A stretch of 64,000 bases of DNA from a candidate division FCPU426 bacterium (GTDB lineage Bacteria > Oederibacteriota > Muellerivitia > Muellerivitales > Muellerivitaceae). Each line of letters starts with the position of its first letter. The first letter of the stretch is position 1. This document shows, piece after piece, positions 41,201 through 50,200 of this stretch. The stretch covers positions 32,001-96,000 of the forward strand of contig CAVTWJ010000020.1 of the NCBI GenBank assembly GCA_963738405.1. Direction: 5' to 3'. Made by a program: the position numbers.

Positions 41201-44200
41201 AGCTGGCGGCTTAAATCCTATCGAGGAAACGCCGGGGGGTTGTTATGATTTTTGCTCGGCATCGAGGAGATATTCCGGTTCAATGGACCGTGAAACCGCG
41301 CTTTTATTTCAAGGGTCTGGAAGAGTTCATGAGTGAAGCCTGGAACCGTTTTTTTTCTCTCGACTTTGAGGAGCATTTTGCCCGTTCCTCGCTGAGATTG
41401 CTGGGGGTTTGGAACCCCCTTTGGACTTTCTTCGTGGGGCTTTTTTGGGGGGAGTGGGAGTTAGGTTCTTTTTTATTCCGCTGGGTCTGGGGGTTGGCCG
41501 AATCAACACTCGCCACCCTTGTCGCTTTACTGGTCATGGCACTATTCCGCTGGGCGGACCGCCGGGGATGGTGGAAAGCCCTGCCTTTCTTGGGACATCC
41601 TGGGGGCGGGCGGTATCTCATCCTCATGGCGGCCCTGGTTCCGCCTGGAATTATCCTGGCCCTGAGCGGAATGGTGGGGGCGATTAACCTGTTTTTTCCC
41701 GGGGATCCCATGGCCGCCCAATTCCACTGGGGCTATTACGGGAAGGGGGTTTTTGGCGGCTGGCTGTTGTTGCTGGTGTTTTTCCTTTTTAAATCCTGGC
41801 AGGACACGAGGGACGAGGCGAGGCTCAGTCAGTTGAGGGCCAGGGAATTGGAGAAAGAGCGTCTCCAAGCCCTATTGAACCAACTCAAGGATCAGATGAA
41901 CCCGCATTTCCTCTTTAATACGCTCAACACGGTCGCGGCGCTGATTCCTGAAAATCCCGCCAAGGCGGAACTGGTGGTGGTGAAACTTTCAACCCTCTTT
42001 CAGGGCATATTGGCCTCAACCCGCAGGACCCACCATCCTCTCGCCAAGGAATTGGAGTTTTGCGGGGATTACCTTGAGATTGAACAGGTTCGGTTTGGGA
42101 CCCGATTGAATTGGAAGGTGGAGCTGGACCCGAATTTGGACGCTCAAAAAATCGAGATTCCGGTGCTCTTACTTCAACCGATCGTCGAAAACGCCGTCAA
42201 ACACGGCCTTTCCTCCCTAGCGGCGGGCGGGACGGTTTGGATCAAGGCTTTGATCCATGAAGAATCATTGGAACTAACCGTTGAGGATGATGGCGTGGGT
42301 TTTGGGAAGTCGCCTTACTCAGGCTCCGGAACCGCCCTAGGCAATTGCCGTAAGCGGCTTGAACTCGCCTATGGCCCACAGGGCAGTTTGACGATTCAAA
42401 CGAGGGAAAGCGGCGGCACCCAAGTAACAATGAAATTGCCCGCCTTATCCGCGGGAAAGTTTGGAGGGGAAATATGATTCGTGTTCTTTTAGTGGATGAT
42501 GAGGCGCCTGCCCGCGCCCGGCTGGCGAGGCTCCTGGCGGATATTTCGGATATACAGGTCGTGGGTGAATCTTCCAACGGCCTGGAGGCTCTGACGGCGG
42601 CCCAGGAACTCAAGCCGGATTTGGTGTTTCTGGATATTGAGATGCCCGAACTGAACGGCTTGGAAGTGGCCGAGACCTGGGCAGGGAACGGACCCGCGGT
42701 GGTTTTTGTGACCGCCTATACAGAACACGCCTTGAGGGCTTTCGAGGTTTCGGCCCTCGATTATTTGGTGAAACCCGTGGCATCCGAAAGATTATTGGAG
42801 GCTTTGGAAAAAGTGCGCAAGCAGAAGGCGCAACCGGGTTTGGAACAATTCCAATCTTTCTTGGAAAAATTCCAAGAGAAAAAAGTGAAGCGCCGTATGG
42901 CGATCAAATGCGGCTCCAAATACCGGGTTTTGGACCCGGAAAAGGTGACGGCTTTGGTGGCGAAGGACCATTACGCCGCCCTGTTGGTGGAAGGTCAGGA
43001 AATATTTTGCGACGACAGCTTGGATCATCTGGCTCAAAGACTGGATCCCTCCCGTTTTTTGAGGATTCACCGCGGAGCCGTGATCAATCTGGATTTTCTT
43101 AAGGAACTGGAGCATCAAGGGGACCGGAAATACTTGGCGGTCCTTTCCGATGTCGCTAAAACCAAGCTGCCCGTCAGCCGGGAAAGGCTGGACGAGTTAA
43201 AGGAAAGGCTGGGTCTTGGATAGGATTTTTTTTTCTCATGGCTCCAGACCCTTCAAGTGGGCCCTGCTTATCTTTTTGGCGGTGGTTCCGCCGGGGTTTG
43301 CCCAAACCCCGATTTCAACCCCGGCCACACCTGATCCCAACTTAAAAACTTTAAGTCCAGGGGAAGAAATCCAGATTCTCCAAGCGATTGATTCCCAGAA
43401 TAAGGGCTCGGGGTCAACGACCCTCGACCCTTCCGGCCCCATTACGACCGTGCAAAACCAAACCAGCCCGGTTTCCACTCCCGGGGCCGGTCAGCCGATC
43501 GCCTCGCCCGTTATTCCTTCATCAACCGTGACGGTCTCCGCTCCCGCAGGACCGCCCCCGATTCCGACGGGTCTCAGTGTTTTGGTCCTAAAAGAAGGCG
43601 TTTATCTCGCGTGGGACGCGTCCTCTCCTTCCGCTAGCACGGTTTCTTACAATGTTTACCGTTCGACAACCCCTGGTACGGGGTACCGGCAAATCAACCT
43701 GAGAACCCAGACTGCGCCCTATTTTCTCGACGGGGTCCCCTCCAGCAGTTCACCCCCTAAAAACGGCGAGAATTATTTTTACGTAGTGGCGGGCGTAGAT
43801 TCACAGGGGCGGTTAAGCGATTATTCGGATGAGGTTTTCGTTGCGCCCCTGGGAATGGAAATTCCCGAAACGGCGGAAGAAAAGGCCGAAGAGGCCAAAA
43901 ATGGTGCCGTGACCGGGGCGCCTAAGGAAACGGAACAAGAACTCAATATCCCTGAGCAAAAAATCGTAAATCTACAGCTTCCGGCCGATACCCAGCTTTC
44001 CATTCAGGGCTATAAGAAGATCGAGGCCGATTTTTCGTTCCAACACTTCACCCACCCGCAGGGCAGCAGCGCGTCCGACAACAATACCACCCTGGTGAAC
44101 CAGGAGATGGTTGTGAACTTGGAAGGGAAGGTTGGGAAAAATGTGGATGTGCATGTCGACTACAGTGATGTCAACCGGGCGGGAGGGGTGGACCAAAGCA

Positions 44201-47200: not shown

Positions 47201-50200
47201 CCTTCATTAACCGTGCAACCCAGATCAGTTTTGGCGTCCTTTCTCCCAATCCCCCCAACGGCCTGACAAAGGAAATTTGGATCAATAACCTGCGGACAAA
47301 TAACCCGAACCAGAGGTCCGGCTTGGCCCGTCGTGCCAACGCCGCTTTTGTACTTGGCAACAACTTTGCGACGGTTAATACCCGATACCGGGAGGTGGAC
47401 TCGGGTTTCACCCAAATCGACCAAACTTCAAATCATTTTCAACATTCCACTCAATATGGGGTGGACTATACTTCTAACGCAGTAAGCGTTTTTGGGCAGC
47501 CCTTGGCGACCCAAATGTCCTACACCAACCAAGACAACTACACCGAAGCGGCTCTTCTGCAAAACCCCTATTACAGCGCTTTGCCCCATACCCAATCGGA
47601 AAATACAACGGGGTCCATTACCTATACAAAAGACTTAGGAGCCGCTTGGGGCCGTTTGACGAATGTTCGTGTCTCCGAAAGCACCTACTCGGAGAACGAC
47701 ACCTACCAATCCGCATACCTTTCTCAGCCTGGCATTCAGGGGGACACACAAAAAGGGAATCAAACCTATACGGTTGCCTCTACCTACGACGCTCCCACCC
47801 AACTGTTCGGTTTTCCGGTTGGTTCCAACCAATTTTCGGAGACGGATATCCTAACCATCGATACTCAAAACTTTTCCAATTCCTCTCAGCCCCTTGTGCC
47901 CTACAGTCGAACCACAAAAAATCAGACCTACGGCTGGACCAACACCACCGAAATATTCAAGAACCTCATTTTTACGCCGGGATATAACCTAAATCTGGTG
48001 GACGCAGTGGGGAACACGAATTCGCCTGGCGTGGCCGGTAGCGTGACTCAATTCACCAATTTCCAGGAAAGGGACCAGCCCAAGGGAGGGTTAACCTACC
48101 GGGGAATTCCCGGGGTCATACCGGCTGTGAACTATACCGGTTCGGAGCAGATTGACAATGTCAGCTACACGGAGGGTCCCCGGCTCAACAATTCCAACAG
48201 CATCAATTATTCCCTGAATCTTTCTCCGTCACTTTGGTGGGATCCCTTCCAAAAGATTGGGTTGACGGCCTTTGCGGGCCGAACGGAAAGCGCGTCAGCG
48301 GCGATCCCCAATTTCCGGGCGGTCCGACCCTTGAGTTTTCAGGAGATATGGCTGATCGCCCCGCCGAACGATATCGCCTTGAATTCGACCAAATCCCTTA
48401 CCGATCAGATCAATTTCAGTTTCAGGCTTTTTGATTTCTGGGACTTCAAACCCACGGGGTCCTGGACCACCCAGTTCAACCTGTTGTCGGCCGGAACCAA
48501 CCCGGTGGAACAAGACAGTGATACCCTTGGTTTTACAACCGTCTTCAACCATAAACTCGCCACTTTGCCTTACCTAAACTTTGGGTTGGATTCCGCCCAA
48601 TTCCAGTACACCCGCACCGATTCAACGCAATGGGACACCCAAAGCCCGCCCCAGATTTCAGGCCAGACGACCAATGAAACCTATTCTTTTACGGTTCCCT
48701 ACGACATCGCCCAATTAGCCACTGGGAATTTTCATTATCAGCATATGGACGGTTTTACCAACACCAGCGGTATTCTGACGACCCAGTTGGATGACCAAGC
48801 CTCGGTGGAGTACAACCAAAAATTTCTCGAAAACACAATTCTGCACATTCCCTTTACCCATTGGAAAATAAAATTTGATCAGGCGATCGAATTGCGCCTC
48901 GTGTTTTTGACGGAGATCGTGAATAACGAAAGCCCGGCCTACCAGCTCAACGATCTTCAGACCGAAAGGTATCGTGGTACACTCACGTTGAATTACAACG
49001 CTTTGAAGAATTTAAGGGTCGGCTTGGGCGGGGTCTACGAGGTATTTGACGAGGACAAACCCTATCAATACTTAAGTTACGACATGTGGCAGATTAATAT
49101 TTCCGGCGAAGCGAGATTTTAAGATGGCTTTTTCACTGGGAAAGGGAAGGGGATATGAAGTGATGGGGCGTAAACGAAATCTACTTACCGCGAATGCGGC
49201 CCTTTGGGTGGCGCTTTTGGCCCATTTTGGACAGTGCCAATCCCTTCCCGCCCCGACAGGTCTTGCGGCAACTCCTGGAAACGGGGTGGTCAATCTATAT
49301 TGGAACCCTCTGCCATCGGCCACGGCCTTTTTCATTTATCGGGACGAATATGGAACACCGACCTATAGCTTTACCCCAACGCCCAGTTTTACCCCTACTT
49401 TTACGGGTTCGCCAACCGATGCGACGACCGACACGACGACCCCGACCTATTCTCCGACCGGAACTCCCACTCCGCTGGCCACGGTTTTGGCCTCGGGCCA
49501 AGCTTCCTTAACCGATTTTCAGGTAGTGAATGGTGATTCCTATGTTTATACCGTCTTGGGGTTAGATTCTTCCGGTAATTTAGGCGCTCCCGCCACAACG
49601 GTCGTTAACCCTTTCGCGCCGCCCCAGGCCATCTCAACTTTAACCGTCCAGCCGCTCCATGCAGGGGCTTTGGATCTTTCCTGGCCTCTCCCTCTTTCTT
49701 CATACCCTGTGACAGGTTACGCCATCTATCGCTTGGCCATCACCTTTACTCCGAATCCATCGGGCACGCCTACGCCCACACCCAGCTTTACTCCAACGCC
49801 CTCTTATACCCCGACCGTCACCTTTTCCCCGACCCTTACCCTGCCCGCAGGAACCTATACCTCCACCCCTGGCAATACCTATACCTTTACCAATACCTTT
49901 ACCCCCACCATAACTTCATCGCCAACGCCCAGCTTTACCCCCACCGCAACTTTTGAACCGACGCGCATACTTGCTTCGGATGTTATTTCCCAAGGGGCAT
50001 TGATCGGAAATTCCTCAGGCACATCTTTTTCGGACCAGCCTCAGCCCTTGGGCCCAGGGGAATATTATTACGTGGCAATCGCGGAAGACGCGAACGGTAA
50101 CCCCGGGGCTATCCCAACCTATTCCAGCATTCCTAATTGCCCTCAATTGTCAAAACCCTTTGCCCCGGCCTTGTCGGGGAATTTAATCTTATCGGTTACC

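What a model noticed while it worked through the whole genome (the two positions that open the first line are those of the whole stretch)
43216..49122. A type IX secretion system outside the Bacteroidota: divergent SprA translocon, PorV paralogues and 75 CTD-tagged cargo [...]
The unannotated 1968-aa gene g02112 is a SprA/Sov type IX translocon. The genome also has at least 8 PorV-type barrels and 75 proteins (mostly glycoside hydrolases and adhesins with Thr/Pro linkers) that end in a T9SS-type C-terminal domain, while no PorK/L/M/N, PorP or PorU family hit is present. SprA is found across the phylum, so a reduced T9SS exists outside the FCB group.
Evidence so far: TIGR04189 hits one ~2000-aa ORF below cut-off in 26 of 26 phylum genomes tested (E 1e-20 to 1e-37) and in 0 of 14 controls. 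phmmer against PDB: SprA 6H3I, E 1e-20. AlphaFold model of residues 780-1968 has pLDDT 86; its top four Foldseek hits are SprA structures (E 5e-39 to 2e-30), the next is 7e-5. 75 proteins carry the CTD at the C-terminus by an iterated HMM; 8 genes are named PorV/PorQ by NCBIfam, and many have a CTD gene next door. A large fn3/CTD gene follows sprA in 5 of 7 relative loci. No GldK/L/M/N, PorP or C25 rows in pfam.tsv. Homologues are also labelled Elusimicrobiota. Abstracts seen in calls 171 and 181 call the T9SS specific to Bacteroidota or FCB.
(Added by a program. Inside this text positions count along the whole contig: contig position 32,001 is position 1 of the stretch shown here. "Call 12" and the like, gene names such as g00115 and contig names such as C1 are that model's own, and its searches are not shown. 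The text may have been shortened before it was handed on; [...] marks where a part breaks off. The agent that wrote the report below was given it as the finding of a first reader that could run no searches.)

Follow-up and report, generated by a model that had tools for sequence, protein, structure and literature searches.

The report
Motorless type IX secretion core
This giant gene encodes the export pore of a protein secretion machine thought to be confined to one group of bacteria, found here in other phyla with its carriers and cargo but without any recognisable motor, which suggests the pore is older than the gliding motor believed to have given rise to it.

Summary
The 1968-aa ORF passes the SprA/Sov cut-off (238 vs 200 bits), and its model aligns end to end with solved SprA. 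The genome has 18 PorV-family barrels and 74 proteins ending in a type-A-like CTD; 10 of 18 barrels lie directly behind a CTD gene, against 18 of 1493 other genes. SprA is found in 92 of 99 genomes of this Goldbacteria/Firestonebacteria-containing phylum and in 114 of 121 Elusimicrobiota. It keeps an lptFG–sprA–comF gene order, and its tree fits vertical descent. GldL, GldM and GldN: 0 of 46 genomes, with working positive controls. Corrections: only 17 of 74 cargo carry a carbohydrate-active catalytic domain; four FCB-labelled genomes also have SprA without motor hits; the tail domain also occurs in probable periplasmic proteins. Verdict: a SprA–PorV–CTD export core lacking the known energy chain. 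It works like a T9SS but fails full membership. Secretion is untested. No report outside FCB was found in 10 literature searches.

The parts
43216..49122 (+). sprA/sov homologue, 1968 aa: signal-peptide-like N-terminus, giant outer-membrane beta-barrel, C-terminal Phe
   Evidence: TIGR04189 238 bits > 200; PDB SprA E 1e-20; HH-suite 100%, 1019 columns against a Bacteroidales-labelled SprA; fold; last residue F invariant in 21 homologues
43549..43851 (+). fn3-like domain near the SprA N-terminus (about residues 112-212), probably periplasmic; peculiar to this phylum
   Evidence: profile built from these rows finds 1-3 copies in 22 of 22 phylum SprAs, 0 of 19 Elusimicrobiota, 0 of 6 FCB-labelled; location inferred
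49124..53923 (+). 1599-aa Thr/Pro-rich fn3-repeat protein with a CTD, starting 2 bases after the sprA stop; conserved neighbour (cargo or structural subunit)
   Evidence: a CTD gene lies within 3.5 kb of sprA in 16 of 21 phylum loci; Atlas look-alikes are fn3/FlgD-Ig/T9SS-tail clusters, a lead only
53597..53920 (+). type-A-like C-terminal domain (FlgD-Ig-like), ending in Lys
   Evidence: profile E 5e-25; 7-strand sandwich, pLDDT 90; matches the CTD end of the PorZ family model weakly, E 8.5e-4
38723..41081 (-). lptF and lptG, the conserved upstream neighbours of sprA
   Evidence: within 3.5 kb of sprA in 10 of 21 phylum, 15 of 19 Elusimicrobiota and 3 of 6 FCB-labelled loci
54666..55430 (+). 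comF family gene, conserved downstream neighbour
   Evidence: near sprA in 18 of 19 Elusimicrobiota and 8 of 21 phylum loci
10060..18333 (+). 2757-aa NHL-repeat protein with a CTD, a second candidate cargo in the window
   Evidence: Pfam NHL and FlgD_ig; CTD profile E 9e-22

Best explanation
The gene encodes a true SprA/Sov translocon. With PorV-family carrier barrels and CTD-tagged cargo it forms a T9SS-type export route that lacks the GldKLMN/PorKLMN energy chain. Steps: (1) cargo crosses the inner membrane by Sec (inferred from hydrophobic N-termini); (2) its Ig-like tail binds a 14-strand carrier docked at the lateral gate of SprA (inferred from the F. johnsoniae structures); (3) carrier and cargo leave the pore sideways. 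Many cargo have their own carrier, encoded just downstream, and probably stay on it at the surface, since no sortase is found. Carrier extensions (TPR, fn3, OmpA-like) would hold or position the pair from the periplasm (inferred). For the release step I favour no dedicated motor, with release limited by carrier supply and made one-way by carrier capture (about 45%), over an unrecognised motor (35%) or a shared TolQR-type motor (20%). Shown: homology, fold, gene linkage, co-occurrence, absence of motor hits. Inferred: export and everything about energy.
For: SprA identity. 74 terminal CTDs, 61 ending in R, K or H; in three genomes the PorZ family model hits only with its CTD end, positions 663-757. 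A CTD gene directly upstream of 10 of 18 barrels vs 18 of 1493 background genes, Fisher p 3e-14; 9 of 13 barrel ORFs in Elusimicrobiota genome G110 (read). CTD gene, barrel gene and sprA run head to tail in loci L230 and L231. Co-loss: 5 of 7 Elusimicrobiota genomes without SprA have no CTD hit vs 1 of 24 with SprA; 4 of 7 have no barrel better than E 1e-5 vs 0 of 24. Motor: 0 of 46 for GldM, GldL and GldN while G105 and G107 ring; 0 of 61 Elusimicrobiota for GldM (positive control only); one Bacteroidales-labelled SprA fragment finds the window protein at 3e-14 while two-sequence GldL/M/N profiles give nothing better than E 0.025. 16 of 17 small SprA-positive genomes hold a single ExbB/TolQ gene, as do 6 of 7 SprA-less ones, so no extra motor of that kind travels with SprA.
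Against: No export data. In F. johnsoniae, release from the translocon needs the motor (PMC10994853, discussion), so passive release departs from the one studied case. No barrel reaches the PorV (best 77.9 of 250) or PorQ (best 110.6 of 220) equivalog cut-off, and B. thetaiotaomicron passes the family cut-off without a SprA hit. The tail fold is tied with generic Ig domains such as ScpA. The same domain occurs in 4 probable anti-sigma factors and inside two barrel-OmpA fusions. G123 and G149 keep good barrel hits without SprA or CTD hits; G192 keeps barrels and CTDs without a SprA hit. The model's pTM is 0.57 and rmsd to SprA 10-14 A. A crude signal-peptide screen passes 54 of 74 cargo vs 620 of 1511 background.
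Confidence: 0.78

Rival explanations
1. A complete T9SS whose motor and ring (GldK/L/M/N) have diverged beyond profile detection or been replaced by unrelated proteins.
For: Release needs energy in F. johnsoniae (PMC10994853). The profiles come from Bacteroidota, and small motor proteins could diverge faster than SprA. TPR proteins that could stand in for SprE exist. Four ExbB/TolQ genes besides motA are present, most with ExbD- and TonB-like neighbours.
Against: 0 of 46 and 0 of 61 genomes; no GldK-fold hit at all in G000; no gldL-gldM-like gene pair by topology (though that screen recognised only 1 of 2 control GldL); ExbB/TolQ number does not follow SprA; no candidate lies near sprA in 40 loci.
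Confidence: 0.3
2. SprA here serves envelope biogenesis, for example surface delivery of lipoproteins or an LPS-linked role. The barrels are BamG/FadL-like and the Ig tails are ordinary periplasmic or adhesive domains.
For: sprA sits beside lptFG across three lineages and near lipid A genes. BamG is a FadL-family barrel conserved in FCB (PMC12611786). SprA is kept in genomes of 1.0-1.3 Mb with few CTD hits, and none in G220. The tail occurs in anti-sigma-like proteins.
Against: Strictly terminal tails on cellulases, xylanases and proteases; 60-100-fold odds for cargo-carrier adjacency, the layout known for type B cargo and PorP shuttles (PMC12618676); co-loss of CTD hits with SprA.
Confidence: 0.12
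3. A recent transfer from Bacteroidota or bin contamination, with decay of the rest of the system.
Against: 92 of 99 and 114 of 121 genomes; intact frames; shared gene order; the SprAs of each phylum form their own clade, sisters to each other and apart from the FCB-labelled clade; contamination 0.1%.
Confidence: 0.03

Closest known systems
Type IX secretion system of Flavobacterium johnsoniae / Porphyromonas gingivalis (SprA/Sov-PorV translocon, type A CTD cargo)
   Same: Homologous giant barrel, collinear over about 1,000 aligned residues; PorV-family barrels; seven-strand Ig tails at the C-terminus, often ending in a basic residue; polysaccharide-degrading cargo.
   Different: No GldK/L/M/N, no full-length PorZ, no PorU in this genome; SprA is about 430 aa shorter and carries N-terminal fn3 domains; 18 PorV-family barrels instead of one shared PorV; tails are FlgD-Ig-like and some come in triplicate; the organism has flagellar genes.
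Type B CTD cargo with cognate PorP/SprF shuttles and PorE anchoring (PMC12618676, abstract and passages)
   Same: Carrier gene directly downstream of its cargo gene; peptidoglycan-binding OmpA-like domains associated with carriers.
   Different: Here the paired carriers are PorV-family and the tails type-A-like; TPR, fn3 and OmpA domains are fused to the barrels; only one sub-cut-off PorP-family hit.
SprA in non-Bacteroidia FCB phyla (PMC12611786, passages) and the proposed T9SS in Fibrobacter succinogenes (PMC6851124, passages)
   Same: SprA and CTD-like tails beyond classical Bacteroidota; four FCB-labelled genomes here also lack motor hits.
   Different: PMC12611786 calls SprA FCB-specific; the passages seen in neither paper treat the energy source, and 'Elusimicrob' does not occur in the searchable supplements of the first.
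BamG (FadL family) of the Bacteroidota BAM complex
   Same: 14-strand FadL-like barrel that could be caught by the same family model (inference).
   Different: Not paired with CTD genes; could account for a few of the 8 unpaired barrels, not for the 10 paired ones.

Membership tests
T9SS (canonical) | SprA/Sov outer-membrane translocon | tested here: met
   TIGR04189 over cut-off; fold. 27 long strands read from the model of residues 781-1968 plus about 9 read from sequence give roughly the 36 of SprA; that total is inferred.
T9SS (canonical) | PorV carrier barrel | tested here: inconclusive
   11 of 18 pass the PorV/PorQ family cut-off, none the PorV equivalog; which paralogue is the shared carrier is open.
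T9SS (canonical) | Cargo with N-terminal signal peptide and type A C-terminal domain | tested here: met
   74 proteins; 3 pass TIGR04183 among the 38 proteins; seven-strand sandwich, compatible with but not specific for CTDs.
T9SS (canonical) | GldL/PorL-GldM/PorM proton-driven motor | tested here: not met
   0 of 46 phylum genomes, 2 of 8 outside genomes positive. Sequence profiles only.
T9SS (canonical) | GldK/PorK-GldN/PorN ring or track | tested here: not met
   GldN 0 of 46; GldK none in G000 and G032, only partial sub-cut-off hits in G049, control G107 positive.
T9SS (canonical) | SprE/PorW periplasmic scaffold | tested here: inconclusive
   Only TPR-level hits, best 50.9 of 250 bits, and 12 of 14 control genomes ring too.
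T9SS (canonical) | Attachment complex (PorU sortase, PorZ) | tested here: not met
   No C25 domain in G000; 7 of 46 relatives have one, and the one examined scores 84 of 420 on PorU; the PorZ model hits only with its CTD end.
T9SS (canonical) | PorP/SprF shuttles for type B cargo | tested here: inconclusive
   One hit at 35.5 of 90.55 bits, directly behind a CTD gene.
T9SS (canonical) | PorT, PorG, Plug, PorD and dedicated SkpA | not tested
   No search run; a Skp gene lies at window 34163-34681.
T9SS (canonical) | CTD- and SprA-dependent export across the outer membrane | not testable with these tools
   Needs cells.

The most novel reading that the evidence does not exclude
The SprA-PorV-CTD module is the ancestral core of type IX secretion. 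It was present in the common ancestor of FCB and the Elusimicrobiota/Goldbacteria branch, exports folded proteins without the GldKLMN energy chain, and the gliding motor was added later in Bacteroidota. This reverses the order inferred in PMC12635249 (T9SS born from the gliding machinery). It also implies either a motor-free release mechanism built on one dedicated, wall-tethered carrier per cargo, or an undescribed energiser.
Probability: 0.6. Interest if true: 0.85.

Novelty: new variant of a known kind. Interest (0 to 1): 0.72.

Why it matters
The T9SS is described as Bacteroidota- or FCB-specific, and its origin has been tied to gliding. A translocon, carriers and cargo kept nearly universally in two further phyla with no motor hits make both the evolutionary order and the need for a motor testable. 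Elusimicrobiota include cultured, harmless species (recalled: Elusimicrobium minutum, Endomicrobium proavitum) and genomes of 1-1.5 Mb that keep the core, which offers a minimal model of how a folded protein leaves this pore. It also supplies a missing export route for the cellulases of Goldbacteria, whose cellulose-degrading gene set was described in PMC7031533.

Tried and rejected
Phylum naming: no 16S gene was found by primer motifs apart from one 3' motif; a GAPDH search was uninformative except for one Goldbacteria-titled record. The 14 built-in controls held no T9SS-positive genome, so their zeros were not used as evidence of absence. Omnitrophota as an outgroup: 2 of 61 genomes gave 33-34-residue matches, and neither locus was hit by the SprA core profile; rejected as homologues. 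A dedicated ExbB/TolQ motor was considered and found no support. SprE search gave only TPR noise. A Pfam scan of a 45-residue fragment gave nothing. RNA: none was listed. Fold searches of the tail could not separate CTDs from other Ig domains. One supplement of PMC12611786 (a scanned file) and the contents of its Extended Data Table 2 could not be read and may bear on the known range of SprA.
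Full report
THE GENE. Window 43216-49122 is one frame of 1968 aa. Its only NCBIfam match is TIGR04189 (T9SS translocon Sov/SprA), 238.1 bits against a cut-off of 200; Pfam gives nothing. Among PDB sequences only F. johnsoniae SprA matches (E 1e-20). A profile of 21 homologues aligns with a Bacteroidales-labelled SprA over 1019 columns at 100% probability. 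A model of residues 781-1968 (53-row alignment, pLDDT 86.8, pTM 0.57) has four SprA structures as top Foldseek hits (E 6e-40 to 9e-32; next 7e-6). VIA aligns 978-1052 residues collinearly onto SprA 780-2401 (Z 16.6-17.9, rmsd 10.5-11.7 A; porins reach similar Z over under 460 residues). I read 27 long strands from the model and about 9 more from sequence; a total near SprA's 36 is inference.

THE ORGANISM. G000 has 3.18 Mb and is 90.7% complete. The set that the tool calls 'same phylum' includes a genome giving the same match as a Goldbacteria-titled record, and the SprA profile retrieves records titled Goldiibacteriota and Firestonebacteria. PMC7031533 (one section and passages) equates FCPU426 with Goldbacteria and names Firestonebacteria and Elusimicrobia as nearest neighbours. 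That this branch lies outside FCB is established knowledge, not tested here; it may be a close sister group.

CARGO. An iterated profile seeded on the tails of sprA neighbours hits 77 of 8527 ORFs, 72 within 15 aa of the stop, and 0 reversed ORFs; with a 16-aa rule and barrels removed there are 74, about 7% of the genome, 61 ending in R, K or H. By Pfam (all 74 scanned; my tally): 17 have a glycoside hydrolase, lyase or esterase domain (one below the curated cut-off), 6 only carbohydrate-binding modules, 2 protease domains, 13 propeller or fn3 repeats, 4 look like anti-sigma factors, and about 32 have nothing named beyond the tail. The tail folds as a seven-strand sandwich (pLDDT 90). The CTDs of PorU, PorZ, NucA and mirolase are among its top matches (Z 8.2-10.1) but are tied with unrelated Ig domains. 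In G000, G032 and G141 the PorZ family model matches only with its CTD end. Such tails occur in 46 of 46 genomes tested (G000 plus the 45 at least 95% complete, of 99), 13-97 matches each.

CARRIERS. NF033709 hits 18 ORFs, 11 over the cut-off; none reaches the PorV or PorQ equivalog. Ten of 18 have a CTD gene directly upstream on the same strand, against 18 of 1493 other genes (p 3e-14) and 6 of 294 exported-like genes. This is the layout that PMC12618676 (abstract and passages) describes for type B cargo and PorP shuttles, here with PorV-family barrels. Five barrels carry TPRs, three fn3 and two an OmpA-like domain after the barrel. In G110, 9 of 13 barrel ORFs have a listed CTD match just upstream; in L230 and L231 the CTD, barrel, sprA and comF genes run head to tail.

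MOTOR. GldM, GldL and GldN: 0 of 46 phylum genomes, while 2 of 8 outside genomes pass the cut-offs. GldK: nothing in G000. GldM: 0 of 61 Elusimicrobiota. As a yardstick, one SprA fragment from control G107 finds the window protein at 3e-14, but two-sequence GldL/M/N profiles reach only E 0.025-0.8. G102, G103, G104 and G109 (Gemmatimonadaceae or Bacteroidota titles, completeness unknown) have SprA over the cut-off and no motor hits, so the motorless state is shared with parts of FCB. G000 has five MotA/TolQ/ExbB genes, none near sprA or a barrel. Small Elusimicrobiota have one such gene whether SprA is present (16 of 17) or not (6 of 7). PorU-type C25 domains are patchy (7 of 46 over cut-off, none in G000's family).

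RANGE AND HISTORY. SprA matches: 92 of 99 in the phylum; 114 of 121 Elusimicrobiota sampled at 90% completeness or more, all below the cut-off, mostly in frames of 1700-1940 aa; 2 marginal of 61 Omnitrophota. lptFG lies beside sprA in 10 of 21, 15 of 19 and 3 of 6 loci of the phylum, Elusimicrobiota and FCB-labelled genomes; comF in 8 of 21 and 18 of 19 (loci chosen by me to span families or for long contigs). In a fast tree (63 of 64 sequences, L256 dropped for gaps, 867 columns, midpoint root) the phylum (SH-aLRT 100) and Elusimicrobiota with one unlabelled sequence (96) form separate clades, joined at 100 together with four other sequences, apart from the clade holding the FCB-labelled sequences (99.8). 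FCB sampling is thin and the root is not independent. Co-loss test (all 7 SprA-less genomes; 23 of the 114 positives plus G111): no CTD match in 5 of 7 vs 1 of 24; no barrel better than E 1e-5 in 4 of 7 vs 0 of 24. Exceptions: G192, G123, G149, G220. Kin are not independent.

MECHANISM. By homology with PMC10994853 (three sections read), cargo tails bind a carrier inside the SprA cavity and leave sideways. There the motor drives release. Here no motor is recognisable, carriers are multiplied and paired with cargo, and no sortase is found, so I favour cargo staying on dedicated carriers held by periplasmic domains, with passive release (45%), over a hidden motor (35%) or shared TolQR (20%). All of this is inference.

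WHAT IS IN PRINT. PMC12611786 (passages, supplements searched) calls SprA 'FCB-specific'. 10.1101/031039 (passages) found the T9SS only in Bacteroidetes, using a model built on GldK/L/M/N among other components. PMC6851124 (passages) proposes T9SS signals in Fibrobacter. PMC12635249 (abstract and first part of the discussion) infers that the T9SS arose from the gliding machinery. Ten searches listed no paper placing SprA or a T9SS in Elusimicrobiota or Goldbacteria. Of the three papers holding both 'Elusimicrobi' and 'T9SS', passages of two were unrelated and the third (PMC8857248) was seen as a listing only. Subscription journals are not covered, and database labels such as 'PorV/PorQ family protein' already exist on relatives.

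VERDICT. A real, intact and vertically kept SprA-PorV-CTD core outside the described range. It works like a T9SS (0.78) but is not a canonical member, since motor and ring fail the test. New variant of a known kind; interest 0.72.

Noticed in passing
L150 (G000 C11:63839-68053), L154 (C14:195082-199168), L155 (C23:168851-171958), L247 (C9:89041-90347): Four ECF sigma / anti-sigma-like pairs in which the anti-sigma ends in the same FlgD-Ig domain. Three sit with a TPR-fused PorV-family barrel and a CTD gene (two PA14+CBM9 proteins, one tail-only). Possibly a FecIRA-like surface-signalling chain built on a PorV carrier. Two sigma genes were confirmed by scan, two by resemblance.
   Followed up: partly
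L147:2766-7578 (G000 C5:56065-60877): A barrel fused to FlgD-Ig and OmpA domains is followed by a TPR+PD40 lipoprotein-like gene and a TPR gene: together most of the domain set of PorE, split differently.
   Followed up: partly
window 35738-37045: LpxC-FabZ fusion (445 of 465 bits), recalled as typical of Bacteroidota and neighbouring phyla, in a skp-lpxD-lpxC/fabZ-lpxA-lpxI cluster upstream of sprA.
   Followed up: no
window 43216-43305 and many barrels and cargo: Signal-peptide-like regions often end in Ala-Gln or Gly-Gln, recalling the Bacteroidetes 'Q-rule' (PMC5837995, listing only). Not counted.
   Followed up: no
L198, L201, L220, L226 and others: Several cargo end in two or three tandem copies of the tail domain.
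   Followed up: no
L209:9782-10135, L155:152-529: Proteins of 117 and 125 aa that are only a signal peptide plus tail; similar 110-160 aa frames occur in Elusimicrobiota. Candidates for plugs or carrier blockers.
   Followed up: no
L153:3489-6688 (G000 C16:72888-76087): An unpaired barrel (best match PorV2 model) precedes an unknown 704-aa exported-looking protein, an lptF/G gene and lptD; a candidate BamG/BamH-like pair.
   Followed up: no
G172 C6 and G171 C3: CTD matches in open frames of 17,343 and 14,935 aa in Elusimicrobiota, next to barrel genes.
   Followed up: no
L004 / L165: The sprA and neighbour frames are broken into pieces in this relative, probably sequencing frameshifts.
   Followed up: no
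P0046, P0058, P0068, P0078: SprA homologues whose clusters are labelled Caldiserica, Aerophobetes, Hydrogenedentota and Hydrothermota; the range may extend further, labels unverified.
   Followed up: partly
window 41245-43223: A LytS/LytTR-type two-component pair overlaps the sprA start and is kept upstream of sprA within the family.
   Followed up: no
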